Shown here: positions 12,801 to 40,533 of the stretch, one piece after another
How positions within the stretch are numbered: the first letter of the stretch is position 1
How the letters are laid out: every line of letters starts with the position of its first letter
Assembly (NCBI GenBank): GCA_964645005.1
Contig: CAZXYS010000006.1
Span: forward strand, 4,741-68,740
DNA from: an uncultured Hyphomicrobiales bacterium
GTDB lineage: Bacteria > Bacteroidota > Ignavibacteria > Kapaibacteriales > UBA2268
Reading direction: 5' to 3'
Length of the DNA: 64,000 bases
The notes under the pieces: model-generated
The model's input: only the letters and a program-made list of their open reading frames with translations
The model's database searches: none
Told to the model about the DNA's origin: nothing
Translations under genes and position numbers: made by a program

Positions 12801-13287
12801 TCATAAGCTCTTTGCAGGCGTCATAAGCATCCACCGGTGAAGAATATTCCACCTTATATATTCTGCTTATACCGTGCTTGTCCGCCGATTTCAGATCGCC
12901 TTCTCCATATTTTGCGAATGGCTGGCGAATTTCCTTTATGTTAAGATCCTCGATCGAACTCTGCAATATCATCGAGCGAAAGCCTTTATCTTCCTTTGAT
13001 ATTTTATAGTATCCCTTAGTTTTTATATGGATAGTGTTTTCCTGATAATATTCCTTGTCAACTATAGGGATATTGTAGATTTTTGCAGGCTTGTATGTGT
13101 TTGGTCCTGTTTTTACTCCTGGTATTACTATCTTATAGGCAATCTTTTGCCCGTCGCCGGGAATATATTTCGGGGAATCGTTCTTTTTTCCCTGATAACT
13201 TAATGGTGAGAGTGAGAAGAGAGGGATTGTAAGAATAAATCCCATTAATACTGTCAAAGATATAAATATTCGTCTAAAGTCTTTCAT
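9835..13287 (-). CDS. Subtilisin-family (S8) serine peptidase with C-terminal BNR-like propeller and T9SS sorting domain
   Basis: Catalytic triad motifs GIVDSGTD (Asp), HGTHVAG (His), GTSMASPVVAG (Ser). Later Asp-box-like repeats (TTNGGNNWQ, STDGGKNWS, TTNGGKTWK, TDDMGESWT). C-terminus NSPNPAANSTKLNIYL...GVYYFRL matches a T9SS CTD. Confidence 0.85.
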   Translation of the reverse strand: MKDFRRIFISLTVLMGFILTIPLFSLSPLSYQGKKNDSPKYIPGDGQKIAYKIVIPGVKTGPNTYKPAKIYNIPIVDKEYYQENTIHIKTKGYYKISKEDKGFRSMILQSSIEDLNIKEIRQPFAKYGEGDLKSADKHGISRIYKVEYSSPVDAYDACKELMKNPEIVYAVPVFMRYPFEYTPNDPSQNRQWMTNKIELKKAWDISKGSKDILIGIVDSGTDTDHEDLKENLWTNPNEIPNNGKDDDENGYVDDVHGWDLARNDSIVKPNDANNNHGTHVAGCAAAVTDNSTGVLSPGFNCSFVPVKVSGDEGGRPAITHGYQGIIYAAELGADVINCSWGGPGSSPAEQDVINQAMDMGAVVVVAAGNDNFQNIDTNPQYPAAYDNVFTVGATANNDGVAGFSNIGNSVNIYAPGHNIYSTLMNNRYGNQSGTSMASPVVAGVMALLKSFKPNWSPIHLMKQIRSTSDDVLTSNPAYKPLFYGRINAFEALDYNGNNPGKNVPGIAITNVEFVGSDAINDYEKTSVNIEVTNYLANASNLKVKLSSVNNFVEFNKTEFNLGFLAKDKSKEFTLRMQLNEMNPWFRGQIKLTLTYESSDYVDYEILNLPILMTSNNRLSTVTKYPNNMNLRWTSAKLTDDNSVWAAGYALAYGYYTLPVYYRYNPSTNSSTNTLNGDPFFSIAPIDKNTAFAVSSKTSGGDARVLKTTNGGNNWQVNNIQGITNFINEIIFFDDREGLFLGDPIGADWGVARSTDGGKNWSRVDNIPPPLNDENGFVGSHFRLGTDVWFGTSKGRVYKSGNKGASWDESTVYNNGFILKLGFYDKNNGIAIYTESDHEGEQLAASTTNGGKTWKKNVFNFSDFALQPVHFFSLPRSDKFYVLCSGGEIYWTDDMGESWTPVLSEQSVGAQSGAVVVNPGFEVKVWEFDSWVSNFNFKYVPNDADQNIELLSDENVEFDTTNIGSKDLQNVEFENTGEIDVHFTELTIQPLEDTEENEFGFFLGKPDYVEPNQKGIVRLQFTPEKEGIRKAKLIVKTDVAGKNYEMNLSGVGIDPSSVPDRTMSGGVVMEQNSPNPAANSTKLNIYLPEPSKFSLEIYNAEGKFMKMVKHGLAGKGNLGIDVNTEDLAPGVYYFRLSAGDNVLTRSFVVSR

Positions 13288-25323: not shown

Positions 25324-25701
25324 CTAAGGACTGACATTAGTGAGCCGGATTAGATGAGCCGGACATTCCCGGCAGTCTGAAGAACCAAAACCCTTTACCG
25401 GCACTTCGGAATTTTGTCGATTCAATAATTCTCCGTTTAGTTCACATTCAATCTTCTTTTTTGAGGGGAATTTCTTAATATCAATGATCTCAACATTGTC
25501 ATCAGCAAGTAGAAAGTCTATATGCCAGTGTTGTTTTTTGTCTTTCCGTTGATGACGTTGAACTCTCTTTTCCAGTCCTCTCATTGCACTGCCGGTATAT
25601 ACATATTTACCGGCAGGGAACCGGCATTGACCAAGTGAGCCAATTTTTACCTTGATTTCCTTTTTAATATTAATTATCAACTGATAGGCGCCGGAGTTCA
25701 T
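25324..25701 (-). CDS. DUF123 / GIY-YIG-superfamily small protein
   Basis: GAYQLIINI...GKYVYTGSAMRGLEKRVQRH...HWHIDFLL...GFGSSDCRECPAHL matches the DUF123 hallmark blocks. 4-nt overlap with the upstream SDR gene. Confidence 0.6.
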   Translation of the reverse strand: MNSGAYQLIINIKKEIKVKIGSLGQCRFPAGKYVYTGSAMRGLEKRVQRHQRKDKKQHWHIDFLLADDNVEIIDIKKFPSKKKIECELNGELLNRQNSEVPVKGFGSSDCRECPAHLIRLTNVSP

Positions 25702-27872: not shown

Positions 27873-28547
27873 ATGTGTGGTAGATTTGCGCTGTCGCCGC
27901 AGACTGGCGATATAGAGAAGCTGGTGCCCGGATTGCGGGTGGAAGTTGACATTCCGCCGCGGTATAATATTGCGCCGACGCAGGATGCAGCTTCAATTCT
28001 CAATGATGATCAGAAAGCGGTGAGTTACCTGCGCTGGGGGCTTATCCCATTCTGGGCGAAGGATCCGGCAATTGGCAATAGGATGATAAATGCCAGAGCG
28101 GAAACAGTTACGGAGAAACCGGCGTACAAAGGTCCGTTCAAGAAAAAGCGTTGTTTGGTGCTTGCTACGGGCTATTACGAATGGAAGAAAGAAGCGGGCA
28201 GCAAGAGGAAAATTCCTTATTTCATCAGGCTGAAGTCGCAAAAGCCGTTCACTTTTGCGGGGCTGTGGGATAACTGGACTGATGAGAACGGAAAGGATGT
28301 GCAGTCCTGCACCCTGATCACAACGGAAGCGAATGATGTTACGTCTGAAATACATCATCGGATGCCGGTCATTATTTCGCCGGAAGCGAGGATGGATTGG
28401 CTGGACAGCGTCGCTGCTGATGTAGAGAAACTTAGCAGCCTGCTGGTGCCCTACGAGGAGGAGCCGATGGAGGCTTATGAAGTTTCAGCGCTGGTGAATA
28501 ATCCGGGTAATGATACGCCGGAGTGTATCAAGCCGGTGGATGGGTGA
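27873..28547 (+). CDS. SOS response-associated peptidase (SRAP; YedK/HMCES family abasic-site processing protein)
   Basis: Begins MCGRF (catalytic Cys2). 224 aa. Conserved WGLIPFWAKD and ETVTEKPAYK blocks. Confidence 0.85.
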   Translation: MCGRFALSPQTGDIEKLVPGLRVEVDIPPRYNIAPTQDAASILNDDQKAVSYLRWGLIPFWAKDPAIGNRMINARAETVTEKPAYKGPFKKKRCLVLATGYYEWKKEAGSKRKIPYFIRLKSQKPFTFAGLWDNWTDENGKDVQSCTLITTEANDVTSEIHHRMPVIISPEARMDWLDSVAADVEKLSSLLVPYEEEPMEAYEVSALVNNPGNDTPECIKPVDG

Positions 28548-28779
28548 AAGATTAATTGGAGTGGTTCTTAAATCGTTATTGTCTATCCTTCGACATCGCC
28601 CAGCTAAAGCAGGATTTCGCTTCATAAAAAAAGTAGAGACATACCCCTGGTCTGTCACAAAAAAAAGGTTATACTTGGGTGGAGTTGAAGTGCGGCACGA
28701 TTTCCACAATTATGAAACAGCCTCATCTATAACATATTACTTTTTTATAAAAATTTTGGTATTTTTATCCCGGAAAATT

Positions 28780-28965
28780 CATTATAAGAATTCCCTCATC
28801 CCTAAATCCCTTTTCCCAAGTGTAGAAGGGACTTTCAGTGTAATAAGAAATTCTTACACCCTTCTCCCGCCGGGAGAAGGGCTGGGGATGAGGGGGAAAA
28901 GAGATTGTTTATGTTCTAATGCAAAAATCAGGGTTTAATGTAACATCCGGATTAAGATGACGCTT
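28780..28965 (-). repeat. MITE-like hairpin repeat, family 1, full-length copy C (inverted)
   Basis: Its reverse complement aligns along its length with copy B (aatccggatgttacat...ccccctcatccccagcccttctcccgccgggagaagggtgtaagaatttctt...gggatgagggaattcttataatgaattttccgg). Confidence 0.7.
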
Positions 28966-29034
28966 CTGAGACACCATCTTGGGAATAATGGAAATATTCT
29001 TAAATTTTATATAATGAAAAACTACGTCTACGTA

Positions 29035-32000
29035 CTATGGCAAAATAACTATCTTAGCCACAGATTTTCTTGATTGCTTATTTACGGATAAGAAATACAG
29101 CCCCGGCTGTAAATCATTTATTTTGGAAATGTTCACAGTCCTTGTATTTCGCCCTGAATCATAAAACCTGCTGCCGCTTGAATAGATCTCATTACCCATA
29201 GCATCCCTCAGTTTAATGTTAACGTATCCAGCCTCCGGATTTTCAAAAGTGACCATAAATATATCCACCGCCGGATTAGGATAGACTTTGAGATTTAAAT
29301 CTTTAGCGGAACTGTATTCCATCACCCCGGTGTACACCGAATTCTTTCTGCCCGGCGTGCCGTTCATTACGTACGATGCCTGCCACGACTCGGGCAGCGA
29401 ATTGTCCAGCCCCGGGTTCTTCAATTCCATTGTCAATCCGGTTTCAACACAGTTTCCCGGCCAGGGGGAAGAGGGCAGATATTCCACTTTGTCGACAAGC
29501 TCGTCATTGGAATCATATAATCTTACCGCATCATCAGTCCCAAATCCGTAAGTGAAATCCTTAGGATAATGCTCAACATTGGGATGCACACTCTCGAAAT
29601 TATTTATATCCCTGCAAATAACCATGTATTCATCACTTTTGATATTCGTTTCCTGGTCAAAAATGAAGATATGGGAATCATCGTCATCTTTAATCTTCCA
29701 GCCGCTGATATTGATATCGTAATCATCAGCATTGTACAGTTCAATCCAGTCTTTGCTGTCCCTTTCGTCGGGCGGAGACTTATACATTATTTCGTTTATG
29801 ATAATTTTGCCTTCATATTGATGGATTTTATCCTCGAATTCAGCTTTCAATGTGACATTCTCAGGTAAATTAACTTTTAACTGCGGCAAACGTGCTTCCA
29901 TAGTATCGGAGAATATGGAGCGATCGCTGATCCATCGCTTGAATTCCATGCCTTCCGGGGGGGTTGCTTCCAATTCAACCGGCACTCCCTGGAAATAGAT
30001 TCCATTCCACGGAAACTCGTCAATGTTAATTGAATTCACTCTGATCTCACCGCCAGTGTGATTTGCATTTATTTCAAGTTTTGCTGTTCCGGTTAAGTTG
30101 AAATACTCAGCATAATGATCAGGTAAATAATTTAAACGAAGCTCATAGAATTTTTTTATTGACTCAATTTCATCTTCCCAATCAATAGCTGCTGAATCCC
30201 ACCTTTTTCTGTGCCTAATGATTTGTGGTCTGATAATATTTGCCAGACTATCTACTATTGGTACAACATTTTCAGCCTGCAGTACCGTGTTCATTAAATC
30301 CGCACTTTTATTGATGAATTTATGCCTAAACACCATGTTTTCCAAAAACTTACTAAAAATTGTCGGGAACGGCCATTTTTGTTTTAAAGTAAACTTAAGC
30401 ATATTATGGTTAAGCATGTATGCCCGGGAAGTACCGTCAAGATCATTTAGAATCCACCGCCATTTCCCATCTAATGAATCTGAGCGCCAATATTTTAGAT
30501 TTTTATAGGGCCAATCAAGATTTGTATTATAGAATTCAATGATGGCGTATTCCATAATGTTTTCAATATCTACACTTCTATTAATAAATTCATAGGAACC
30601 TGGTTTGTTAAAATCCATAGTTTCAATACTGTCATACATATTAAATAACTTAATTCCATCGCCATGTAATCTACCGTTAGCATCTTCATACAAATCAATT
30701 GTGTTTTTTGGGATGTCATATTTTAGACTGATTTGATCTTCATGTATTCTCTCTCTTATATTTTCGATCCCCCAGTATTCGCCATTCAGGAAAACAATGG
30801 CGGGGCTAAAAGCCATTGCATCAAGATTGTGGAAATCTTCTGCCAAAACAGCACAAATCCCATCTCTTATTATGCTGCTTTTCCATTCCGTACCGCCGTT
30901 ACGAACAATTAGGTGATCATATTTGTCCATTCCTTTATCCCCGAAAAAGGGATAATCAAAATATTTTTCACCGTAAATACTTCGCGCGTATAATCTCACT
31001 GATTTTTGCGGATGATATCTTGATGCATGACCGTGTACTCTCGCCCCCGCCCCCGATTCATACTTTAATTCCTTATCATCTCCCCATAACTCGAAATTGA
31101 CCGGTATTTCAATATCTTTGAATAAGTTATCTTTCACGAAAATGCCGTTCTCCTTGTTCCATAGATCCTCCGGGTCAGCAGACAAAGATATTACCTGCAA
31201 CGGAATGTCTTCATCAATGAAGTAAGTGTTGGATACTATCCTGCCGGGTAAAAGCGCATCATTGAATGCTCTGGCTCTTATAAGTGTCGTCGTATCGATT
31301 GTGATCGTTTCGCCGGTATATCGTATCGAGCCGCTGTCAGGCTCAGAGCCGTCTTTTGTATAATAGATATTAGCTTTATCATCATTGACACTTAATGTTA
31401 CCGTTTTATTCCCTTCGAACCAGCCGCCTTTATTTGAAAATATAGGGTCTGCGGTTCTTCCGGGGCAGCCTTGTAAATTTTCTTTTTCTGGTGTTGGATT
31501 CGGGCAAAATGAAAATTCGCCTTCTCCATCGGGGAATCTACTATAGGAAATATCCGTTATCTGATCGGTAAATATGACTTTATCTATTAATTCACCTCTC
31601 GAATTCCATAGAAATAACGATTCTGATTGTCTGTTAAGTTTAAAATCCGTATGTAATTCTCGTGATAAATAGCTTCTGCCTTCTTCGCCGGCGTTGAATT
31701 CAATGTGTTTGAATTTCTCAGGTGAAAAATCTTCCCCGTTGATTTTCAATTCCGAAACCGTTAGTTTTGACATTTGATCTCTATTACCGCTTCCAAAGGC
31801 TATACCAAGATAGATCGTGCCTTCCGGCATTGGAAGATTAATTTCAGCGCCGCAGTACCAGTGTACTCCGTCAGCATTAATGTATCCAAAAAGAGAATCC
31901 CCCCTGCGCTTTAACTTTATGTAGTAACTTGGATATTCCACTTCGACATTCCAAAAAGGCACTATCTTGGGCCATTCTCTTTCTCTGGTCCTGAAATGGA

Positions 32001-32538
32001 ATTTGTAGCCCTTCATTCGCGGGCTTTCGCATACCATAGCGCCATACCTGCAATCTTCAGTCAATTTCTCCCGTACCATCAGACCTGCTTTTGCATTATC
32101 CGCAGCGAAGCGCATAGCATTGAATTTTGCCTCTATTTCAAAATCCCCCTGAATTTCAATATAGTCAAACCTGATGCCGTCAGTTCCATCATAATATCCA
32201 AAGCCCCAGCCGGAGGACTCCATGATATAATTATCCGTGCCTCTTCTGTCCAGTCCCGAAGCATAAACCATCAATCTCTCACCCGGTTCAACTCTTCTGT
32301 CAGGAATTTCCCATGCTTCCTCAAAATTATTATTATCGCTTACCCTGTATCCCTTTAAATTGACCGGACTATCACCGTTGTTGTATAGCTCAAACCAGTC
32401 AGGGGTCTCCATATTTTCATCATAGTAGCAGCTATGGTTGGAGGCTGCGATTTCGTTGATTTTGATATCGGCTGCTGTACTGTCAATTACAATAACGATC
32501 AATGATAGGAATAGTACAAATCTCCGCTTTAATTTCAT
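29035..32538 (-). CDS. CotH kinase-family protein flanked by lamin-tail domains, with T9SS C-terminal sorting domain (LTD-CotH-LTD-CTD), paralog 1
   Basis: N-terminal LTD (IKINEIAASNHSCYYDENMETPDWFELYNNGDSPVNLKGYRVSDN). Central CotH-like region (LIVRNGGTEW...VFLNGEYWGIENIRE...WRWILNDLDGT). Second LTD (IINEIMYKSPPDERDSKDWIELYNADDYDINISGWKIKDDD). C-terminal KVYPNPAVDIFMVTFEN...GLYFLSV CTD. Confidence 0.7.
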   Translation of the reverse strand: MKLKRRFVLFLSLIVIVIDSTAADIKINEIAASNHSCYYDENMETPDWFELYNNGDSPVNLKGYRVSDNNNFEEAWEIPDRRVEPGERLMVYASGLDRRGTDNYIMESSGWGFGYYDGTDGIRFDYIEIQGDFEIEAKFNAMRFAADNAKAGLMVREKLTEDCRYGAMVCESPRMKGYKFHFRTREREWPKIVPFWNVEVEYPSYYIKLKRRGDSLFGYINADGVHWYCGAEINLPMPEGTIYLGIAFGSGNRDQMSKLTVSELKINGEDFSPEKFKHIEFNAGEEGRSYLSRELHTDFKLNRQSESLFLWNSRGELIDKVIFTDQITDISYSRFPDGEGEFSFCPNPTPEKENLQGCPGRTADPIFSNKGGWFEGNKTVTLSVNDDKANIYYTKDGSEPDSGSIRYTGETITIDTTTLIRARAFNDALLPGRIVSNTYFIDEDIPLQVISLSADPEDLWNKENGIFVKDNLFKDIEIPVNFELWGDDKELKYESGAGARVHGHASRYHPQKSVRLYARSIYGEKYFDYPFFGDKGMDKYDHLIVRNGGTEWKSSIIRDGICAVLAEDFHNLDAMAFSPAIVFLNGEYWGIENIRERIHEDQISLKYDIPKNTIDLYEDANGRLHGDGIKLFNMYDSIETMDFNKPGSYEFINRSVDIENIMEYAIIEFYNTNLDWPYKNLKYWRSDSLDGKWRWILNDLDGTSRAYMLNHNMLKFTLKQKWPFPTIFSKFLENMVFRHKFINKSADLMNTVLQAENVVPIVDSLANIIRPQIIRHRKRWDSAAIDWEDEIESIKKFYELRLNYLPDHYAEYFNLTGTAKLEINANHTGGEIRVNSINIDEFPWNGIYFQGVPVELEATPPEGMEFKRWISDRSIFSDTMEARLPQLKVNLPENVTLKAEFEDKIHQYEGKIIINEIMYKSPPDERDSKDWIELYNADDYDINISGWKIKDDDDSHIFIFDQETNIKSDEYMVICRDINNFESVHPNVEHYPKDFTYGFGTDDAVRLYDSNDELVDKVEYLPSSPWPGNCVETGLTMELKNPGLDNSLPESWQASYVMNGTPGRKNSVYTGVMEYSSAKDLNLKVYPNPAVDIFMVTFENPEAGYVNIKLRDAMGNEIYSSGSRFYDSGRNTRTVNISKINDLQPGLYFLSVNKQSRKSVAKIVILP

Positions 32539-32630
32539 TTCTCTACCCTTATTTTAATAATAACCTATATCTGTTACACCGTATCAAATCGCCATAATTA
32601 TAGTAATATTATTTTTCCTATCCCTTAATG

Positions 32631-35600
32631 TTATGGTAATACAATTATCTTTTTTACTACTTTTTCATGTGCTTTATTTACGGACAAAAAATATGTTCCT
32701 GAATTGTTGGCGGTAATTTTTGAAATATTCATAGAAATATCTGTTATGCCCTTCTTATAAAAGTGTTTTCCTGTGGAATAAATCTTATTGCCCAATACAT
32801 CATGCAACTCGATTACAACATGTCCCGAATTAGGATTTTCTATCGAGATATTTATCCTATCTGTTGCAGGGTTGGGATATATTTCCAAACTCAAACCAGA
32901 TATTGTCCTGTAGTCGAGAATGCCTACATAGACCGAATTCTTTCTGCCCGGCGTGCCGTTCATTACGTACGATGCCTGCCACGACTCGGGCAGCGAATTG
33001 TCCAGCCCCGGGTTCTTCAATTCCATTGTCAATCCGGTTTCAACACAGTTTCCCGGCCAGGGGGAAGAGGGCAGATATTCCACTTTGTCGACAAGCTCGT
33101 CATTGGAATCATATAATCTTACCGCATCATCAGTCCCAAATCCGTAAGTGAAATCCTTAGGATAATGCTCAACATTGGGATGCACACTCTCGAAATTATT
33201 TATATCCCTGCAAATAACCATGTATTCATCACTTTTGATATTCGTTTCCTGGTCAAAAATGAAGATATGGGAATCATCGTCATCTTTAATCTTCCAGCCG
33301 CTGATATTGATATCGTAATCATCAGCATTATACAATTCAATCCAGTCTTTGGAATCATTCTCGCCGGGCGGCGATTTATACATTATTTCGTTTATGACAA
33401 TTTTACCGTCATTTTGAAGCTCTGCTTTCTTGAATTTTGCTTTTAAATTCACAGAGTTTGGCAATGAAACAGTAATTTTGGGCTCAAAAGCATCAAGAGT
33501 ATCTTCGAAAATTGACCTGTCGCAAACCCATTTGTGAAAAATCAAATTATCTGTCGGTTCAGCTTCAATTTGAACGGGCACATCTTGAAAATAAATGCCA
33601 TTCCACGGGAATTCAGATATAGTAATATCATTTATCTTTATTTGCCCGTTTGATGGTTCAGTGTTTATTTTCAAATTTGCTATACCGCTTAATTCGAAGA
33701 AATCTACATAGTGTTTTGGAAAATGTTCTAATCTATGGTTTATATAATATTTAATGGCAAAAATCTCTCCTTCCCAATTAATTGCGGAAGTATCCCATTT
33801 TCTGCGATGCCTTTGTAAATTTGGTTTTATAATATCAACTAAACTGTCAACAATAGGCAATACATTGGTAGGTTGCAAAACCGTGTTTATAAATTCGGCA
33901 GTTTTATTAATAAATTTATTTTTGAATTTAGGATTTTTAAAAAAATTAAGTAAGATATCTGAAAAGGGACATTCTTTATGAGAAAGACGCTTAAAACAAT
34001 CATACTCGGCATTTCCCAAATAACCGAAGGTCCAGTCCAAATCATTTAATATCCATCTCCATTTGCCATCTAATGAATCAGAACGCCAGAATTTGAGATT
34101 TTTATGTGGCCAATCAAAATTGCCGGTATATAATTCCATAATTACATATTCCATGATATTATTGATATCCACATTTCTCTCAATAAAATCATAGGCTTCG
34201 TCCGCCTCAAAGTCAATTATCTTAATGCTATCAAGCAAACTATACAATTCTTTACCGTCCCCATGTAGTAATACGTTCGAATCTTCATACAGATCTATTG
34301 ATTTAGTTGGTATATCATGTTTCAAATGTAAATAATCTTCGTGGACTCTTTCTCTTATCTTTTCGATTCCCCAATACTCTCCATTAATAAACATTATAAC
34401 CGGCGTAACAGCCAATGCATCCAGATTTGAGAAATCATCGGCTAATATCGCGCAAATAGCATCTCTTATCAGGCTCTCTTTCCATTCGTTCCCACCATTA
34501 CGCAGTACAATGTGATTATATTTCTCCAGTCCTTTATCCCCGAAGAAAGGATATGAAAAATACTTGTCACCATAAATATTTCTGGCATATAATCTCATGC
34601 ACTTCTGGGGAAAACTTGTTGAACCTTGTCCATGTAATTTTGCTCCGGCTCGGGTTTCATATTTTAAGCTTTTATCAACTCCCCACAATTCAAAATTCAC
34701 CGGTATCTCTATATCAGCAGATATATTGCTATCATGGAAAATTCCTATTTCTTCATCCCAAAGGTCCTTTGGCTCAACAGCTATGGAAACTGTCGGTAAA
34801 GGAAATTCTTCTTCAATAAAGTAAGTATTCGATACAATGCGGCTGTTTAAAAGTTTATCATTGAAAGCTTTAGCCCTGATACAGGTTGTTGTATCGAGCA
34901 CAATAGTTTCACCTGTGTATTTGCTCGAGTTAATATCCGGTTCTGAGCCGTCTTTGGTATAGTAAATATCTGCATCTTGATCCGGCGAACTTATAGATAT
35001 CGTGGCTTTTCCTTCAAACCATCCGCCTTCATTTGAGAAAACCGGATCGGGGGTTTTTCCGGCAATTCCTTTGTCATTCTCTTTCTCGGGACTGGGTTTT
35101 GTGCAATAAGAGAAGTCTCCGCTGCCGTCAGGAAATCTGCCATAAGAAACATCCGTATACTGTTCCGAGAAAACAACTTTATCGAGCAATTCTCCTTTGG
35201 CATTCCATAAAAATAATGACTCTTTTTCTCTGTTTAGCTTGAAATCTGTATGCAATTCATTCGAATAATAGCTTCTCCCTTTTTTGCCTGTATTGAATTC
35301 TATAGAATGAAAATTTTCAGGTAAAAACTCTTTTCCATTAATTTTCAAATTAGTAACAGTCAATTTTGATATATGATTATAAGCACCACTCGTTAAAGCA
35401 ACTCCTAAATATACAGTATCCTGTTCCATTTGTAATTTTGCCCTTGCATCACAAGTCCAATGTACACCATCAGTACTAATATAGCAGAAAAGTGAATCAC
35501 CTTCCCTTTTAAATCTCATAAGATAGCTTGGATATTCAGCCAGAAAATTCCATAACCGGGATCTAATTGGTAACTTACCTTCATCGCTTCTATAAATAAA

Positions 35601-36188
35601 CCTGTATGCCTTTGTCACTTGGTTTTCACAAACCAGTGCAGCATATTTGCTGTCATCAGTCAATTTCTCTCTTACCATTAAACCGGCTTTGCTTTCGGGC
35701 AATGTTAATCTTAAAGCATCAAATCTTACATGTATCTCAAAATCGCCGCTTATCTTAATATAACTAAATCCAAACCCATCAATTTTATGCTTAAAAGAGA
35801 ATCCCCAGCCGGAGGACTCCATGATATAATTATCCGTGCCTCTTCTGTCCAGTCCCGAAGCATAAACCATCAATCTCTCACCCGGTTCAACTCTTCTGTC
35901 AGGAATTTCCCATGCTTCCTCAAAATTATTATTATCGCTTACCCTGTATCCCTTTAAATTGACCGGACTATCACCGTTGTTGTATAGCTCAAACCAGTCA
36001 GGGGGCTCCATATTTTCATCATAGTAGCAGCTATGGTTGGAGGCTGCTATCTCATTGATTACTATTTCTGCAATTGCACTTGAGCAGCAAATTATGAAAA
36101 AAAGTGTTCCTATTAAAATTTTCCACATTAGATACATAGATCCATTCCTTCTTTTGTTACAATGATCATTATAAACCGTAATAGTCAA
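32631..36188 (-). CDS. CotH kinase-family protein flanked by lamin-tail domains with T9SS C-terminal sorting domain, paralog 2
   Basis: Same architecture as 29035-32538. N- and C-terminal LTDs are nucleotide-identical to paralog 1 over ~265 bp and ~400 bp. The central CotH region and the CTD are diverged. True start is probably an internal Met (MYLMWKILIGTLFFIICCSSAIA signal, near 36137). Confidence 0.7.
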   Translation of the reverse strand: MTITVYNDHCNKRRNGSMYLMWKILIGTLFFIICCSSAIAEIVINEIAASNHSCYYDENMEPPDWFELYNNGDSPVNLKGYRVSDNNNFEEAWEIPDRRVEPGERLMVYASGLDRRGTDNYIMESSGWGFSFKHKIDGFGFSYIKISGDFEIHVRFDALRLTLPESKAGLMVREKLTDDSKYAALVCENQVTKAYRFIYRSDEGKLPIRSRLWNFLAEYPSYLMRFKREGDSLFCYISTDGVHWTCDARAKLQMEQDTVYLGVALTSGAYNHISKLTVTNLKINGKEFLPENFHSIEFNTGKKGRSYYSNELHTDFKLNREKESLFLWNAKGELLDKVVFSEQYTDVSYGRFPDGSGDFSYCTKPSPEKENDKGIAGKTPDPVFSNEGGWFEGKATISISSPDQDADIYYTKDGSEPDINSSKYTGETIVLDTTTCIRAKAFNDKLLNSRIVSNTYFIEEEFPLPTVSIAVEPKDLWDEEIGIFHDSNISADIEIPVNFELWGVDKSLKYETRAGAKLHGQGSTSFPQKCMRLYARNIYGDKYFSYPFFGDKGLEKYNHIVLRNGGNEWKESLIRDAICAILADDFSNLDALAVTPVIMFINGEYWGIEKIRERVHEDYLHLKHDIPTKSIDLYEDSNVLLHGDGKELYSLLDSIKIIDFEADEAYDFIERNVDINNIMEYVIMELYTGNFDWPHKNLKFWRSDSLDGKWRWILNDLDWTFGYLGNAEYDCFKRLSHKECPFSDILLNFFKNPKFKNKFINKTAEFINTVLQPTNVLPIVDSLVDIIKPNLQRHRRKWDTSAINWEGEIFAIKYYINHRLEHFPKHYVDFFELSGIANLKINTEPSNGQIKINDITISEFPWNGIYFQDVPVQIEAEPTDNLIFHKWVCDRSIFEDTLDAFEPKITVSLPNSVNLKAKFKKAELQNDGKIVINEIMYKSPPGENDSKDWIELYNADDYDINISGWKIKDDDDSHIFIFDQETNIKSDEYMVICRDINNFESVHPNVEHYPKDFTYGFGTDDAVRLYDSNDELVDKVEYLPSSPWPGNCVETGLTMELKNPGLDNSLPESWQASYVMNGTPGRKNSVYVGILDYRTISGLSLEIYPNPATDRINISIENPNSGHVVIELHDVLGNKIYSTGKHFYKKGITDISMNISKITANNSGTYFLSVNKAHEKVVKKIIVLP

Positions 36189-36210
36189 GCATGTGTTATT
36201 TTTTATTTAG

Positions 36211-36885
36211 TTAATGCAACTCAAAGCTGTACTTATAATAAAAAGCCAGAATTCTCTCAATATCCGGCTCCTCAATATTGAATTCATTTTCATAGCGGTA
36301 GAAGATATCCAATTCATGACCATTGTCCAGATTAATCTCCACACCGACAGATAATTTGTATTTTAGAAAGCGGTCACCTTCATCCCAATTGAATCTGTAA
36401 AAGGCTTCGCTGCTCAAATACGGATTTACCGGACCTTTGAGATTGTAGTCTATCGCGAACTTATTGCGCCAGAAAACTCGATTATTATCGTCCACGCGAT
36501 ATTCTTTATCATAGCGGGAGCGAAGCTGAAATTCGAATCTATCTATTTCATATTCAAGATAGATTGTAGGTCGCAATTCATGCTGCTTTTTGTCAGTATA
36601 AAGATTATACCTGTAAGCTAAAGCCAGATCAACATATTTATGCAGATCGTATTGAAAACCATAGGATGCAATGCTGTTCTTCATATTTTTGCCGCTGTTT
36701 CGCAATCTTATCTCCTGTTCATATTCAAAATCAAGATCTTTGGATAGTTCAAATTCAATTTGCATTCCCATCCAGAATTCATTTTCATTATCCTGCGACT
36801 GTGCCGTAACAATACTGAAAATTATTAAACAACTGCAAAAAAATACTTTTCTTAAATATATATTCCTGTAATTTATAACATACAT
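36211..36885 (-). CDS. Putative outer-membrane beta-barrel protein (DUF2490-like)
   Basis: Signal peptide, then alternating hydrophobic/aromatic beta-strand-like segments rich in Tyr/Phe/Arg/Glu (YRYNLY, YLEYEIDRFEFQLRSRYDKEYRV). 21-22 bp gaps to both neighbours in the operon. Confidence 0.35.
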   Translation of the reverse strand: MYVINYRNIYLRKVFFCSCLIIFSIVTAQSQDNENEFWMGMQIEFELSKDLDFEYEQEIRLRNSGKNMKNSIASYGFQYDLHKYVDLALAYRYNLYTDKKQHELRPTIYLEYEIDRFEFQLRSRYDKEYRVDDNNRVFWRNKFAIDYNLKGPVNPYLSSEAFYRFNWDEGDRFLKYKLSVGVEINLDNGHELDIFYRYENEFNIEEPDIERILAFYYKYSFELH

Positions 36886-36906
36886 TATAAAATACGCTTT
36901 CTGATT

Positions 36907-37515
36907 TTATTCATAATAAAATATCTTGACATTAGCCGTATCCTGCAGGAAGTCGATCCTGCCGATTTCATATCTGTGAATATTTAACCCTGTACGCTTT
37001 TTCAGATCATCCAGCAAAAGCGCATTATTCTCCGGTTTGATCAGTTCAATTTTCTCATAAGTAATATTCTTGCTAACTTCATTTTTTATCCAGGTCTTCT
37101 CAAGGAATAAAGCAAACGCAGCTATCAATACATTTACAAATAAGATGTTAACCAGCCCGATTTTCTGATTAGCTAAAGCATTGATAATAGCGACGCTTAT
37201 AGAAATAAATAGATAGGTCATTTCCTTGATTGGCACAGTTTCCGTTCTGTACCTGAGTATCGAAAAAATTGCAAACAGCCCGAAAGCAAATCCTATACTC
37301 AGATTGACACTGTTAAGCAGAAAACATACTATAAATACAGCAAGATTGAATAAGACCATCGTAAAGAGATAGTCCCTGTTTTGGGTTATTCTGAAATAGA
37401 TCTGCTTGGTGATGAAATAAACAAATATAAGATTCAGTATAAATCTTGGAATGAATTCCTTAATAAATGAAAATTCAAATAATTCATATTCTGCCATACT
37501 ATTTTGCCCCCACAT
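36907..37515 (-). CDS. DUF4956 family membrane protein
   Basis: Three-to-four TM helices followed by LRYRTETVPIKEMTYLF, which I recall as DUF4956-typical. Overlaps the VTC gene stop. Confidence 0.55.
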   Translation of the reverse strand: MWGQNSMAEYELFEFSFIKEFIPRFILNLIFVYFITKQIYFRITQNRDYLFTMVLFNLAVFIVCFLLNSVNLSIGFAFGLFAIFSILRYRTETVPIKEMTYLFISISVAIINALANQKIGLVNILFVNVLIAAFALFLEKTWIKNEVSKNITYEKIELIKPENNALLLDDLKKRTGLNIHRYEIGRIDFLQDTANVKIFYYE

Positions 37516-38280
37516 TACTTTTACAAATTTTTCGAATAGAAATTAGCTTGGACTTCAATCGATTGTATTTCACCTCGGGAACTGTCAATACCGTTCCAAT
37601 ACAATATTTGCTGAATGAAGCGGGTTTTATACCATATTCTTTCACAATATTGGCAAATCGGGAATTTTGATTCTTTCCCGGAAATTTAACCTCCGCTACT
37701 ACTAATCTCTCTAACCTGTTTTCATTTATTGAGTTTTCGAAATAGAGTTCATAGTCGAGTGTTACTTTTTCAGGGATGTTTTTATGAAGCAATGTAATTC
37801 TGTGATAGCTAACCTTTAGCTTTGAATGCAATCTATCGGTATCAATATTGAAAGTCTCCAAAGCTGTTTTTTTCAAAGCCCCGTTAATTCTCTCATTGAA
37901 CTGACCCTGAGGTTCTCTGTATTTTATAACTCTCTTCTTATTATTTTTATATTTTATCTCGAGGAATGTTCTATTTGACTCAACATAGGTTCTATAACGA
38001 ATCTTAATTCTATTTTGCTTGCCATTCACATGATTAGTGAATAAAAAATGATCTTCGGTATCAAAATAGTGATTTTCTATGGAGAAATGCCTTAAGCCAT
38101 CGATATCCAAAATCATATAGTCTCTTTGTAGGTTGGCAAGCAATTCCGGCAGTAAACTTACATTGAAGAAATACTTTTGCTCATACCTGTTGATAAGCTT
38201 TTGGCATCGAGTTGCTCAAGACTCGTTGGCTTGAAAGCACTTAGCATTCTTTTTGTTTCCCTATTTACCTTATTACCCAT
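37499..38280 (-). CDS. VTC (polyphosphate-polymerase/CYTH-like) domain protein, interrupted by an apparent -1 frameshift at an A4 run (~38199-38206)
   Basis: Downstream frame encodes ...LINRYEQKYFFNVSLLPELLANLQRDYMILDIDGLRHFSIENHYFDTED... (VTC N-terminal block). The only ATG starts (38280, 38247) are in the +1 frame, giving MGNKVNRETKRMLSAFKPTSLEQLDAKS before a TAA. The track ORF 37499-38143 starts at an internal TTG. Confidence 0.6.
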
Positions 38281-38669
38281 TTACTATTATTAACACATTA
38301 ATTCGATTTTTTTCTTTACAAAATACTAAAAAAAATGTGAACAGAAACATAAATTACCTGCTAACACAGTGTGTTTCTGATTTTCGAAAATTATGTCAAA
38401 TAGGATAAATAGGCTCTATATCAAAACCCTGATTCGTTTTGTTGAAAATCAATTCCACAAATACAATTAATACTTTTGTTTATATATTTAAAATTTTTCA
38501 TCAATCATTGCCCTTTTTAAAATTCACTATAAAATCAATATAGTAAATTTTTTACATAAAGCAAAATTATTTTTAGAGTAATTATTCTTTTTTTTGAATG
38601 TGTTAATAAAATGATTATATTTATCATACGTATTAGAAATAAAAAGATGATAATTTATATCATAAAAAG

Positions 38670-38894
38670 GTGGTAAAAATGCGCACTACAATCAACGTAA
38701 GAGATGATATTATCAGTGATATTATTGAATATTATGATGCAAAATCAAAAACCGAAGCCGTAAACAAGGCATTGGAAGATTTTGCTATGGACTTGAAAAG
38801 AAAAAAAATAATTGAGATCAGAGGCAAGATTGATATTGAAGATGATTTGGATGAATTGAAGAAAAAAGAAATCCAGGAGTTGAAAGAATTATGA
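38670..38894 (+). CDS. vapB: Type II antitoxin (VapB-like)
   Basis: 74 aa, charged C-terminus. Directly precedes the PIN toxin gene and overlaps it by 4 nt. Confidence 0.6.
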   Translation: MVKMRTTINVRDDIISDIIEYYDAKSKTEAVNKALEDFAMDLKRKKIIEIRGKIDIEDDLDELKKKEIQELKEL

Positions 38895-39274
38895 ATGAGC
38901 TTGTTATGATTGACTCAAGCTGCTGGATAGAGTATCTAAGAAATAGTGATCAAAAAATTGCTGATACCGTTGTTGATTTAATACAAAATCATCAGGCATG
39001 TATTTGTGGCATTATTGAAATGGAGATCGTACAAGGTATTCGGAATAAAAAACAAGCTGAATTAGTGTCTAATCTCTTCGATATACTCAAATATTATACT
39101 ATTGTTAGAGAAGATTTCATTAATGCCGGGAAAAGAATAATTGAAATGAAGAAAAAAGGTATTATAGTTGCTACTTCCGATTGCCTTATAGCTGAAATCT
39201 GTATAAAAAATAATCTTAAACTCTACACGAAAGATAAAGATTTTAATTACTTTCAAAAACTTAAACTTTATTAA
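38891..39274 (+). CDS. vapC: PIN-domain toxin (VapC family ribonuclease)
   Basis: 127 aa. MIDSSCWIEYL (first acidic residue), EMEIVQG, and ATSDCLIAEICIKNNLKLYTKDKDF (C-terminal acidic residues) match PIN domain topology. Confidence 0.75.
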   Translation: MNELVMIDSSCWIEYLRNSDQKIADTVVDLIQNHQACICGIIEMEIVQGIRNKKQAELVSNLFDILKYYTIVREDFINAGKRIIEMKKKGIIVATSDCLIAEICIKNNLKLYTKDKDFNYFQKLKLY

Positions 39275-39333
39275 ACCCATATTTTGCAATAGAATAAACA
39301 TATATTAGAATAAATAACTTAATCCTAAGAACT

Positions 39334-39389
39334 AAACCACCCCTTCTTTCCCCCGCCTTAGTAAGGAGGGGATACAGGGGTGGTTTTTC
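39334..39389 (+). terminator. Hairpin terminator after vapC
   Basis: aaaccacccc ... ggggtggttttt palindrome followed by a T-run. Confidence 0.5.
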
Positions 39390-39570
39390 TAATTCTTTTA
39401 AAGGCACTATGTTCGTAAAAGTGAGTAGTTATAATGAAATATCCGGGTTTAACTCAATAAATTTATATTCACCATTATGTTACGAATATCGTAATAACAT
39501 TTTCCTTACAAAATATTAAAATTCTACCCCCGTCGAAATATTAAATTTTTCCATAAATACAAGGCATACA

Positions 39571-40533
39571 ATGGAAGAACTACAGATCTATCCCGAAATC
39601 GAACCGTTTAACACAGGCGAATTGAAAGTTTCGGATTTACACACTCTTCACTATGAAGAGGCGGGCAATCCCAACGGCATACCGGCAGTATTCCTGCATG
39701 GCGGTCCAGGCGCCGGACTTAATGATGCTTATCGCAGATTCTTCGATCCGAATGTCTATCATGTTATACTCTTCGACCAGCGCGGCTCGGGTCAAAGTAC
39801 TCCCCACGCCGAGTTGAAAGAAAACACAACCTGGCATCTCGTCGAAGATATGGAAAAGCTCCGCACACATTTTGGCTTTGATAAATGGCTCGTCTTCGGT
39901 GGAAGCTGGGGCAGCACACTTGCTCTCTCTTACGCAGAGAGTCATCCGGAAAATGTATCAGCACTTGTCCTGAGAGGGGTTTTCCTCGGCAGGAAATTTG
40001 AATTAGACTGGCTATATCAGGATGAAGGCGTCGCCCGCCTCTATCCCGACAATTACGAAGAATTTGTCAATTTCATCCCGGAAAACGAACGAGGCGATAT
40101 GATCAATGCCTATTACAAGCGCTTAATTGCCGACGACGAAGATCTCCAGCTAAAAGCGGCAAAGATCTGGAGCATCTGGGAAGCTGGCATATCCAAACTT
40201 GTCCCCGACCAGAATCTCATCGAAGAATTTGGCGATCCGCATACTGCTCTTTCAATAGCAAAAGTGGAATGTCATTATTTTGTAAACAATTTGTTTTTGG
40301 AAACCGAAAACTACCTGCTGGACAATGCTCATAAGATTAAGGATATACCAGCGGTGATAGTTCAGGGGCGTTATGATGTAGTCTGCCCGCCTCGCTCGGC
40401 ATGGGATCTTCATAAAGCACTCCCGAAATCAGATCTGCGGATTATGCAAACCTCAGGCCATTCCCAGCTTGAAGTTGGCATTTCCAATGAACTGGTAAAG
40501 GCTGCTGATGAGTTGAAAACAACATTGCAATAA
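39571..40533 (+). CDS. pip: Proline iminopeptidase (prolyl aminopeptidase, S33)
   Basis: N-terminus YPEIEPFNTGELKVSDLHTLHYEEAGNPNGIPAVFLHGGPGAG is near-canonical for Pip. Nucleophile GGSWGSTLAL. 320 aa. Confidence 0.9.
   Translation: MEELQIYPEIEPFNTGELKVSDLHTLHYEEAGNPNGIPAVFLHGGPGAGLNDAYRRFFDPNVYHVILFDQRGSGQSTPHAELKENTTWHLVEDMEKLRTHFGFDKWLVFGGSWGSTLALSYAESHPENVSALVLRGVFLGRKFELDWLYQDEGVARLYPDNYEEFVNFIPENERGDMINAYYKRLIADDEDLQLKAAKIWSIWEAGISKLVPDQNLIEEFGDPHTALSIAKVECHYFVNNLFLETENYLLDNAHKIKDIPAVIVQGRYDVVCPPRSAWDLHKALPKSDLRIMQTSGHSQLEVGISNELVKAADELKTTLQ

What the first reader, a model, noticed from the sequence alone, without database searches (positions are those of the whole stretch)
29035..38280. 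Operon linking a VTC polyphosphate-polymerase-like protein, a DUF4956 membrane protein, an OM beta-barrel and two T9SS-secreted LTD-CotH kinase-family giants
Five minus-strand genes sit with 21-92 bp gaps or overlaps: VTC (37499-38280), DUF4956 (36907-37515), beta-barrel (36211-36885), CotH paralog 2 (32631-36188) and CotH paralog 1 (29035-32538). CotH is an atypical protein kinase fold. I recall the VTC + DUF4956 + CotH neighbourhood as recurrent in Bacteroidota and Clostridia annotations, but no function is assigned to it. Here both CotH proteins carry lamin-tail domains and T9SS sorting signals, so the kinase domains are delivered to the cell surface or exterior, where ATP is scarce. In eukaryotes the VTC domain synthesises polyphosphate and translocates it across the membrane. 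One hypothesis is a coupled system in which a membrane VTC/DUF4956 unit supplies a phosphodonor or modifies a substrate for surface CotH kinases. The beta-barrel could be the outer-membrane conduit.
Basis: partly seen in the sequence, partly recalled or inferred. Interest (0 to 1): 0.85.

Follow-up and report, generated by a model that had tools for sequence, protein, structure and literature searches.

The report
Polyphosphate-polymerase module with exported CotH kinases
A five-gene cluster pairs a yeast-type polyphosphate-polymerase gene (broken here by a one-base deletion), its membrane partner and an outer-membrane barrel with two secreted CotH kinases; the linkage recurs across bacterial phyla, has no known function, and may be a route for getting phosphate polymer to the cell surface.

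Summary
One correction: 37499-38280 is not an ORF. A 1-nt deletion between 38194 and 38195 splits the VTC gene three codons before its first catalytic strand. The same lesion is seen directly in two other assemblies and implied by gene calls in a third.

In 81 species-level loci, VTC and DUF4956 are a near-obligate pair, and their genes usually overlap. DUF2490 joins them in about 60%. CotH joins in only about 17-24%, always as an exported protein and only where the barrel is present. Five annotated replicons from three other phyla hold an intact pair; four place it beside phosphate genes, one beside CotH. A sixth (Pseudoalteromonas) keeps DUF4956 beside an OprO/P porin plus a VTC remnant.

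Best reading (about 0.45): an envelope polyphosphate synthesis and export module, with CotH as an optional surface partner. PolyP as the kinase's phosphodonor is untested (about 0.15). DUF4956 shows no similarity to the eukaryotic VTC channel, and the barrel lumen may be occluded. The association was already noted beside Gram-positive pel operons, so this is a new variant of an uncharacterised kind.

The parts
37499..38280 (-). VTC-type (triphosphate-tunnel) polyphosphate-polymerase-like gene, interrupted by a 1-nt deletion between 38195 and 38194. The upstream piece is 38280-38158 (40 codons). The downstream frame runs 38194-37499.
   Evidence: Frame analysis. Alignment to the intact relative L002:9217-10023. 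The repaired protein hits PF09359 at 1.1e-23. All 25 family-invariant residues are still encoded. The same lesion is present in Logan contigs L001 and L005.
36907..37515 (-). DUF4956 inner-membrane protein: five predicted helices plus a C-terminal ACT-like alpha/beta domain. Its start overlaps the VTC stop by 17 nt.
   Evidence: PF16316 at 9.7e-51. AF2 model with pLDDT 81.6. A positive-inside count places the C-terminal domain in the cytoplasm. The gene overlap is conserved in 53 of 73 loci.
36211..36885 (-). DUF2490 outer-membrane beta-barrel with a signal peptide; small KdgM/NanC-like barrel class.
32631..36137 (-). CotH paralog 2. Domain order: signal peptide, LTD with an inserted DUF1349-like lectin domain, CHB_HEX_C/Fn3_assoc, CotH kinase domain, LTD, T9SS type A C-terminal domain. 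The maximal ORF reaches a TTG at 36188.
   Evidence: Pfam and NCBIfam. The catalytic Asp equivalents are conserved.
29035..32538 (-). CotH paralog 1, with the same architecture plus an InlB B-repeat-like domain (Flg_new_2).
   Evidence: Pfam and NCBIfam. A weak DUF1349 match in residues about 135-290. The CotH profile matches B. cereus CotH 5jd9 at 2.9e-39.
29336..29733 (.). 398-nt tract 100% identical to 32932-33329 (C-terminal LTD of both paralogs): a gene-conversion tract.
   Evidence: The rest of the two genes is about 65% identical at the protein level, with third-codon positions about 40% identical.
32204..32448 (.). 245-nt tract identical, apart from one mismatch, to 35803-36047 (N-terminal LTD of both paralogs): a second gene-conversion tract.
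   Evidence: Logan contig L001 ends at window 36018, inside this repeat.

Best explanation
The locus is a Bacteroidota/FCB-type version of a widespread, uncharacterised envelope module whose invariant core is a cytoplasmic VTC-type triphosphate-tunnel enzyme translationally coupled to the DUF4956 membrane protein.

Proposed mechanism:
1. Inferred from conserved catalytic residues: the VTC protein polymerises polyphosphate from a nucleoside triphosphate at the cytoplasmic face.
2. Inferred from obligate pairing, gene overlap and topology: DUF4956, whose conserved Arg-rich loop and ACT-like domain face the cytoplasm, receives the chain and moves it, or a phosphate species derived from it, across the inner membrane.
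3. Inferred from fold class and from replacement by an OprO/P-type phosphate porin in Pseudoalteromonas: in diderms an outer-membrane barrel (DUF2490 here) handles the outer-membrane step.
4. Speculative: the T9SS-exported, catalytically competent CotH kinases, held at the surface by LTD and lectin-like modules, act on or with the exported polyphosphate. The most attractive version is polyP as phosphodonor where ATP is scarce.

CotH is an optional add-on that was recruited repeatedly.

In this genome the polymerase gene carries a fresh 1-nt deletion. The module is therefore probably inactive or crippled at present, while the duplicated CotH genes remain intact.
For: - Family assignments: all are far above the curated cut-offs.
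- VTC family invariants map onto catalytic residues of yeast Vtc4. K36 aligns with K200, R95 and R97 with R264 and R266, K110 with K281, E197 with E426, and S224-K225 with S457-K458. The R264A/R266A/E426N triple mutant is the inactive Vtc4 used in PMC9911596.
- Pairing: VTC lies directly upstream of DUF4956 in 73 of the 81 survey loci. Several of the other eight are cut off by the contig end just upstream of DUF4956. Stop and start overlap in 53 of 73 loci, median -14 nt.
- DUF2490 sits beside the pair in 46 of 76 loci with room for it.
- CotH is found in 14 of 81 loci, always within 0.7-1.8 kb of DUF4956 and on the same strand in 13 of 14. It occurs only where DUF2490 is present (Fisher p = 3.5e-4). 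About 0.1-0.8 loci would be expected by chance. Every complete adjacent CotH has a T9SS CTD or a lipoprotein signal. The adjacent CotH domains are only 15-31% identical to the window's, with several different architectures and positions, which implies repeated recruitment.
- Reciprocal survey: 7 of 80 metagenomic LTD-CotH loci carry VTC. DUF4956 beside it was confirmed in six of the seven, and an HlyD-like adaptor with Pfam support in one.
- Annotated replicons in other phyla:
  - Deinococcus taeanensis: CotH-VTC-DUF4956, contiguous.
  - Deinococcus sp. QL22: the pair next to an acid phosphatase and phnDCE.
  - Nitratireductor: DUF4956-VTC-PiT-phytase-like.
  - Shinella and Aminobacter: DUF4956-VTC-phytase-like.
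  - Pseudoalteromonas: DUF4956 followed after 1 nt by Porin_O_P (2.4e-47).
- Barrel fold: the DUF2490 model is closest to the acidic-sugar porins KdgM and NanC. At least seven lumen-facing positions are K/R in 78% or more of the family.
- CotH catalytic residues: the invariant D205 and D229 align with the two Asp-containing motifs of B. cereus CotH 5jd9. Their 24-residue spacing matches that of B. subtilis D228 and D251, which are the catalytic residues (PMC7821199).
- Gram-positive loci hold cotH, the polyP polymerase gene and DUF4956, with no barrel reported among the accessory genes, as expected for monoderms (PMC7112168; bioRxiv 10.1101/2024.04.20.589940).
Against: - No biochemical data exist for any bacterial VTC-domain protein, DUF4956 or DUF2490 in the searchable literature.
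- The VTC gene here is frameshifted. Split or truncated VTC genes also occur in L008, L066 and Pseudoalteromonas.
- The invariant E/R/R/E/Y set of DUF2490 is reported as a buried salt-bridge network (relative solvent accessibility 0.04-0.05) in bioRxiv 10.64898/2026.07.29.741452, so the barrel may be plugged. In the window protein, predicted lumen-facing acidic residues outnumber basic ones, 23 to 16.
- About 76-83% of VTC-DUF4956 loci lack a neighbouring CotH, and about 90% of this CotH subfamily lack a neighbouring VTC. D. proteolyticus CotH stands alone.
- The phosphate-uptake neighbours (PiT, Phn, OprO/P, phytase-like) fit an import or storage role as well as an export role.
Confidence: 0.45

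Rival explanations
1. Phosphate homeostasis module, with CotH only a co-regulated neighbour. VTC-DUF4956, with or without a barrel, stores or buffers phosphate. For example, it could act as a polyP sink that drives phosphate uptake, or deposit polyP in the periplasm, much as yeast VTC fills the vacuole. CotH would be an independent T9SS cargo (an adhesin, or a kinase using another donor) that shares regulation but not chemistry with the module.
For: Neighbours in other phyla are phosphate-acquisition genes: a PiT transporter, phnDCE, an acid phosphatase, phytase-like esterases and an OprO/P porin. Most VTC-DUF4956 loci have no CotH. Fungal CotH proteins are described in the literature as acting as invasins or adhesins (own knowledge; titles).
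Against: CotH has been placed directly against the module by several unrelated CotH subfamilies and in at least four phyla (PMC7112168). It occurs only with the barrel-containing version. Its catalytic aspartates are invariant, which argues for an enzymatic role that is selected together with the module.
Confidence: 0.25
2. The VTC-like protein is not a polymerase. It would be a triphosphate-tunnel hydrolase or sensor (tripolyphosphatase- or NTPase-like) that gates or regulates DUF4956, a channel or transporter for some other solute, through its ACT-like domain.
For: Triphosphate-tunnel enzymes catalyse diverse reactions on triphosphate substrates (PMC4641920). DUF4956 resembles no known polyP channel. 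It carries an ACT-like ligand-binding domain (bioRxiv 10.1101/2024.04.20.589940).
Against: The sequence falls in Pfam VTC, not CYTH. It also keeps the residues that define Vtc4 polymerase catalysis, including the S-K pair and R-x-R.
Confidence: 0.12
3. In this genome the cluster is a decaying remnant. The polymerase is dead, and the arrangement with two CotH genes reflects history (tandem duplication and hitch-hiking), not a working system.
For: A 1-nt deletion removes the start and N-terminus from the catalytic frame. The allele is the only one seen in three runs: directly in two, and by gene call in the third. The upstream lipoprotein genes common in other Bacteroidota loci (c0, c1) are absent here.
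Against: All 25 invariant VTC residues are intact, as are DUF4956, DUF2490 and both CotH reading frames (3.5 kb each). The lesion is therefore very recent. The closest relative has the same module intact. Homogenisation of the LTD tracts by gene conversion suggests ongoing selection on the CotH pair.
Confidence: 0.3

Closest known systems
Eukaryotic VTC complex (yeast Vtc4/Vtc3/Vtc1 polyphosphate polymerase-translocase)
   Same: It has the same catalytic domain family (PF09359). The tunnel residues K200, R264, R266, K281, E426 and S457/K458 are conserved as family invariants. The enzyme is obligately partnered with a membrane protein.
   Different: There is no SPX domain. The catalytic domain is not fused to a DUF202-type transmembrane domain. 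The partner, DUF4956, is a separate polypeptide with no detectable structural similarity to the VTC channel. The membrane crossed would be the cell envelope, not a vacuole. The gene is frameshifted in this window.
cotH / polyP-polymerase / DUF4956 / DUF4832 accessory genes of Gram-positive pel operons (Whitfield et al. 2020, PMC7112168; S. intermedius SIR_1594-1592, bioRxiv 10.1101/2024.04.20.589940)
   Same: The same three families (CotH, VTC-like and DUF4956) are contiguous. CotH is predicted to be secreted and to keep its catalytic residues. Function is unknown in both cases.
   Different: Here there are no pel genes and no DUF4832 among the flanking genes scanned with Pfam. An outer-membrane DUF2490 barrel is added. 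CotH is exported by the T9SS and flanked by LTD domains, and it is tandemly duplicated.
Bacillus CotH spore-coat Ser/Thr kinase (PDB 5jd9)
   Same: The kinase domain is homologous (profile E = 2.9e-39). Both catalytic aspartates are conserved (PMC7821199).
   Different: The Bacillus enzyme works on the spore surface inside the mother cell, where ATP is available. These proteins carry signal peptides and T9SS sorting domains and act outside the cell. There are no CotB/CotG-like SKR substrates nearby.
KdgM/NanC family of small porins for acidic oligosaccharides, and the OprO/OprP phosphate/pyrophosphate porins
   Different: There is no sequence-family membership: Pfam gives only DUF2490 and a sub-threshold OMP_b-brl match. 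A preprint reports the conserved charges as a buried network rather than an open ladder.

Membership tests
VTC domain / triphosphate-tunnel polyP polymerase (PF09359) | Sequence match above the curated threshold | tested here: met
   The repaired translation scores 84.4 bits against a cut-off of 23, E = 1.1e-23, covering profile positions 1-231 of 235.
VTC domain / triphosphate-tunnel polyP polymerase (PF09359) | Catalytic tunnel residues equivalent to Vtc4 K200, R264, R266, K281, E426 and S457/K458 | tested here: met
   These are invariant columns K36, R95, R97, K110, E197, S224 and K225 in 39 sequences, and all are encoded in the window gene. The mapping comes from a profile alignment to 3g3q.
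VTC domain / triphosphate-tunnel polyP polymerase (PF09359) | Intact reading frame | tested here: not met
   There is a 1-nt deletion between 38195 and 38194. No ATG, GTG or TTG precedes the RYEQKY strand in the downstream frame.
VTC domain / triphosphate-tunnel polyP polymerase (PF09359) | PolyP synthesis from ATP | not testable with these tools
   This needs an enzyme assay. No bacterial homologue has been assayed in the searched literature.
Eukaryotic VTC complex | SPX sensor domain and a DUF202-type transmembrane channel | tested here: not met
DUF4956 (PF16316) | Sequence match above threshold, multi-pass membrane protein | tested here: met
   172.3 bits against a cut-off of 30.6. The model has five helices plus a C-terminal alpha/beta domain.
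DUF2490 (PF10677) outer-membrane barrel | Sequence match, signal peptide and a transmembrane beta-barrel fold | tested here: met
CotH kinase (PF08757) | Sequence match, and the catalytic and metal-binding aspartates (B. subtilis D228 and D251) | tested here: met
   117 bits for both paralogs. The invariant D205 and D229 align to the two Asp-containing motifs of 5jd9. Their catalytic role is taken from PMC7821199.
CotH kinase (PF08757) | Protein kinase activity and the identity of the phosphodonor | not testable with these tools
   This requires assays with ATP versus polyP.
T9SS type A cargo | N-terminal signal peptide plus a C-terminal TIGR04183/PF18962 sorting domain | tested here: met
   TIGR04183 at 2.4e-9 and 8.6e-11. 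PF18962 at 2e-12 and 6e-12. Hydrophobic N-termini are visible.
T9SS type A cargo | T9SS machinery present in the organism | not tested
   There is indirect evidence only: two further CTD-bearing proteins in the window, at 9835-13287 and 8143-9726.
Gram-positive pel-associated cotH/PPP/DUF4956/DUF4832 cluster | Contiguity with pelDEADAFG and the presence of DUF4832 | tested here: not met
   The flanking genes are dxs, pcm, an SDR, tyrS, SRAP, VapBC, a hydrolase, a symporter and a GT1. None is a pel gene or DUF4832.
KdgM/NanC porin family | Sequence-family membership and an open anion-selective pore | tested here: inconclusive

The most novel reading that the evidence does not exclude
Bacteria possess a third, VTC-type polyphosphate synthase that is coupled to a dedicated envelope export route: DUF4956 in the inner membrane, and DUF2490 or an OprO/P-type barrel in the outer membrane. 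Exported CotH kinases would use the extruded polyphosphate, not ATP, as their phosphodonor to phosphorylate surface or matrix targets. This would answer how secreted kinases are fuelled outside the cell.
Probability: 0.15. Interest if true: 0.9.

Novelty: new variant of a known kind. Interest (0 to 1): 0.62.

Why it matters
Three open problems meet in this locus.

- **Bacterial polyP synthesis.** It is attributed to PPK1 and PPK2. A VTC-type enzyme with all the Vtc4 catalytic residues, present in at least five bacterial phyla, has never been assayed. Its obligate partner DUF4956 spans about 2,100 protein clusters at 50% identity.
- **Extracellular polyP.** How polyP could reach the periplasm or the cell surface is unknown.
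- **Secreted CotH kinases.** They occur in cellulosomes, streptococcal biofilm loci, Bacteroidota T9SS cargo and fungal pathogens, and they have no known phosphodonor supply outside the cell.

The recurring, repeatedly re-invented adjacency of these parts gives a concrete and cheap hypothesis to test in tractable organisms. Bacteroides thetaiotaomicron carries at least the DUF4956-DUF2490 part of the module (BT3498-99).

For this particular window the practical message is narrower. It is a well-preserved example of the Bacteroidota variant, but its polymerase gene has just been knocked out.

Tried and rejected
1. **Contaminated home-made HMMs.** My first CotH HMM was built from full-length ORFs and was contaminated by the T9SS C-terminal domain. 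It reported 45 hits. Pfam showed that many of these were other T9SS cargos. I rebuilt it from domain envelopes and used only that version. The iterated LTD HMM was contaminated in the same way, so LTD counts from it are not used.
2. **Single-sequence phmmer against PDB.** It found nothing for CotH or VTC. Profiles were needed.
3. **Programmed frameshifting at the VTC lesion.** I considered and rejected it. There is no slippery heptamer at the site (sequence), and the closest relative has an uninterrupted gene.
5. **Rosetta-stone fusions.** VTC+DUF4956, DUF4956+CotH and DUF4956+DUF2490 proteins exist in the 1.84-billion-protein library. In the DUF4956+CotH (P0201) and DUF4956+DUF2490 (P0227) proteins that I read, the downstream half keeps its own signal peptide or lipobox. 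P0329 (VTC+DUF4956) has a possible internal start. I therefore treat all of these as probably merged neighbouring genes and count them only as evidence of adjacency.
6. **Sigma-70 promoter and terminator scan.** At chance level and uninformative for this phylum.
7. **Rfam scan of 28000-39600.** No riboswitch or other RNA family.
8. **Organism name.** Cluster look-up returned no names or accessions for this genome.
9. **A structure prediction for VTC itself was not run.** Both jobs went to DUF4956 and DUF2490.
10. **Phosphate porin, PiT, phytase-like and acid phosphatase genes.** I searched for them in the Bacteroidota and metagenome loci. None lies next to the module there.

Full report
**1. 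What is in the window**

Four uninterrupted minus-strand ORFs occupy 29035-32538, 32631-36188, 36211-36885 and 36907-37515.

- *The two large proteins (1167 aa and up to 1185 aa).* They share one architecture: signal peptide, lamin-tail domain (LTD), CHB_HEX_C/Fn3_assoc, CotH kinase domain, a second LTD, and a type A T9SS sorting domain. Scores are CotH 1.2e-33 and 1.7e-33, LTD about 1e-33, Por_Secre_tail about 1e-12, and TIGR04183 2.4e-9 and 8.6e-11. The stretch between the two halves of the first LTD is weakly DUF1349-like, that is, concanavalin-type.
- *The 224-aa protein.* It is DUF2490 (4.4e-23).
- *The 202-aa protein.* It is DUF4956 (9.7e-51).
- *Flanking genes.* They are ordinary housekeeping genes (dxs, pcm, tyrS, SRAP), plus a VapB/PIN pair directly upstream.

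**2. The VTC gene is broken**

The closest relative has an intact 268-aa VTC gene (GCA_964509335.1, locus L002; its DUF4956 is 80% identical). Aligned to it, the window lacks one base in a Leu codon, between positions 38195 and 38194. The site is three codons before the R-x-E-x-K first strand and is not in a homopolymer run.

The downstream frame has no canonical start codon before that strand. Logan assemblies of two other runs are 100% identical across the site (L001 and L005). A third run gives the same truncated 205-aa gene call.

The repaired protein matches Pfam VTC end to end (1.1e-23) and still encodes all 25 residues that are invariant in a 39-sequence family alignment. The lesion is therefore real and recent. 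I rejected programmed frameshifting: there is no slippery site, and the relative's gene is uninterrupted.

**3. Is the linkage conserved?**

*From DUF4956 outwards.* A DUF4956 profile retrieved 80 species-level genome loci, almost all Bacteroidota. I called ORFs and searched them with domain-envelope HMMs.

- VTC is immediately upstream of DUF4956 in 73 of the 81 loci surveyed (80 plus the relative L002). Several of the other eight are cut off by a contig end just upstream of DUF4956. The VTC stop overlaps the DUF4956 start in 53 of 73 loci, median -14 nt.
- DUF2490 sits beside the pair in 46 of 76 loci with room for it.
- CotH is present in 14 of 81 loci, or 8 of 33 when at least 5 kb is available on both sides. 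It is always 0.7-1.8 kb from DUF4956 and on the same strand in 13 of 14.
- CotH occurs only in loci that also have DUF2490 (Fisher p = 3.5e-4). Chance would give fewer than one such locus.
- A Pfam scan of 43 large unlabelled same-strand neighbours found no further CotH.
- The adjacent CotH domains are only 15-31% identical to the window's. They come in several architectures, upstream or downstream of the core. Every complete one carries a T9SS CTD or a lipoprotein signal.

*From CotH outwards.* Of 80 metagenomic loci holding LTD-CotH relatives, 7 have VTC. DUF4956 beside VTC was confirmed in six of the seven: three by my HMM and, in L091 and L131, by Pfam, with L156 judged by sequence motif. 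One locus also has an HlyD-like adaptor with Pfam support.

*Other phyla.* Annotated replicons extend the picture:

| Organism | Arrangement |
|---|---|
| Deinococcus taeanensis | CotH-VTC-DUF4956, contiguous |
| Deinococcus sp. QL22 | the pair beside an acid phosphatase and phnDCE |
| Nitratireductor | DUF4956-VTC-PiT-phytase-like |
| Shinella, Aminobacter | DUF4956-VTC-phytase-like |
| Pseudoalteromonas | VTC remnant, then DUF4956, then (1 nt later) an OprO/P-family phosphate porin (2.4e-47) |

*Published notes.* The literature records cotH, a polyP polymerase and DUF4956 (plus DUF4832) next to Gram-positive pel operons, and in Clostridium perfringens NELoc-2, always without a function.

**4. 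The parts, one by one**

*VTC.* The family invariants align with the Vtc4 catalytic residues: K200, R264/R266, K281, E426 and S457/K458. R264A/R266A/E426N is the dead enzyme used for the VTC cryo-EM structure.

*DUF4956.* The AF2 model (pLDDT 81.6) has five helices and a C-terminal beta-alpha-beta-beta domain.

- Loops 43-47 and 89-97 are K/R-rich and the N-terminus is acidic. This puts the ACT-like domain and the invariant RYRT...IKEMTY loop on the cytoplasmic side.
- The family has about 2,100 clusters at 50% identity.

*DUF2490.* The AF2 model (pLDDT 85) has a signal helix and a barrel in which DSSP counts 11 strands.

- Conserved lumen positions are mostly Arg or Lys.
- However, the invariant E58/R60/R92/R140/E160/Y196 set matches the composition of the buried two-Arg, two-Glu, Tyr network that a 2026 preprint reports for DUF2490. 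An open pore is therefore not shown.

*CotH.* The domain profile matches B. cereus CotH at 2.9e-39. The two invariant aspartates align with the two Asp-containing motifs of 5jd9 and show the same spacing as B. subtilis D228 and D251.

**5. Interpretation**

The conserved unit is VTC-DUF4956. An outer-membrane barrel is added in diderms, and exported CotH is an optional, repeatedly recruited accessory.

Three observations make a polyphosphate or phosphate route across the envelope the best-supported reading:

- the topology of the parts;
- the phosphate-handling neighbours in other phyla;
- the substitution of DUF2490 by a phosphate-selective porin.

The step from that route to polyP as the CotH phosphodonor is inference only. 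The neighbours would fit a phosphate uptake or storage role equally well. In this genome the polymerase has just been inactivated.

**6. Novelty**

The three-family association has been noted before. PGAP already names the parts 'polyphosphate polymerase domain-containing', 'DUF4956' and 'CotH kinase family'.

I found no description of the following in the searched literature: the Bacteroidota form with DUF2490 and T9SS-LTD-CotH, the restriction of CotH to barrel-containing loci, the phosphate-gene contexts, or the OprO/P substitution. I therefore class this as a new variant of a known but uncharacterised kind.

**7. Also seen**

The two CotH paralogs are old duplicates: 65% amino-acid identity, with third-codon positions about 40% identical. 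Even so, both LTD regions are identical at the DNA level (398 nt, and 245 nt with one mismatch), which indicates gene conversion. A Logan contig ends inside one of these tracts.

Noticed in passing
window 29336-29733 = 32932-33329; 32204-32448 = 35803-36047: The two CotH paralogs are old duplicates (65% amino-acid identity, third-codon identity about 40%). Both lamin-tail domains are nevertheless identical at the DNA level (398 nt, and 245 nt with one mismatch). This indicates gene conversion confined to the LTD modules.
   Followed up: yes
window 38679-39274 (+): A VapB antitoxin / PIN toxin pair sits directly upstream of the VTC gene and diverges from it. The closest relative has rpmH-rnpA-yidD-yidC in that position instead, so the four-gene module lies in a different genomic context in the two genomes.
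   Followed up: partly
window 9835-13287 (-), 8143-9726 (-), 60068-63841 (+): There are further large secreted proteins: an S8 subtilase with Sortilin/BNR repeats and a T9SS CTD, a BNR-repeat protein with a CTD, and a 1257-aa WD40 beta-propeller protein with Ig-like (Cep192/ASH) domains.
   Followed up: partly
L006-L085, for example L073:8083-9248 and L019:3755-4162: Two more families recur just upstream of VTC in Bacteroidota: a lipoprotein with a CarboxypepD_reg/transthyretin-like beta-sandwich (31 ORFs in the surveyed loci) and a secreted protein of about 135 aa with no Pfam match (18 ORFs). Both are absent from the window and from its closest relative.
   Followed up: partly
L131:5788-6879; also L091:3476-4540 and L115:236-1315: A divergent VTC-DUF4956 subtype found next to LTD-CotH genes in metagenomes is accompanied by a protein of about 360 aa that resembles an HlyD-type periplasmic adaptor. 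Pfam supports this only for L131 (HlyD_3, 2e-7).
   Followed up: partly
L069:3-4394 and L074 (upstream of VTC): In two related freshwater Bacteroidota MAGs, the gene immediately upstream of VTC-DUF4956 appears to be the T9SS translocon SprA. The pooled Pfam scan found one SprA_N match (1e-159). I assign it to this gene family from sequence and length; the tool did not name the member.
   Followed up: no
L008:1000-1709, L066:2556-3313, L168:6664-6978: VTC is split or truncated in three other loci, at different positions. One is a 104-aa remnant in Pseudoalteromonas, next to an LTD lipoprotein. Either this gene is lost recurrently or MAG sequences carry errors here.
   Followed up: partly
P0329, P0201, P0217, P0227 (protein library): Predicted fusion proteins exist: VTC+DUF4956, DUF4956+CotH and DUF4956+DUF2490. 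In the two I read with a CotH or DUF2490 downstream half (P0201, P0227), that half keeps its own signal peptide, so these look like merged neighbouring genes and not true fusions.
   Followed up: yes
L054:8341-10410 and L084: A Cthe_2159-type beta-helix carbohydrate-binding protein follows the module in two loci.
   Followed up: no
window 28510-28938 (+) and 25324-25701 (-): A 142-aa ORF with no Pfam match overlaps the end of the SRAP gene. A DUF123/GIY-YIG protein lies next to an SDR gene.
   Followed up: no
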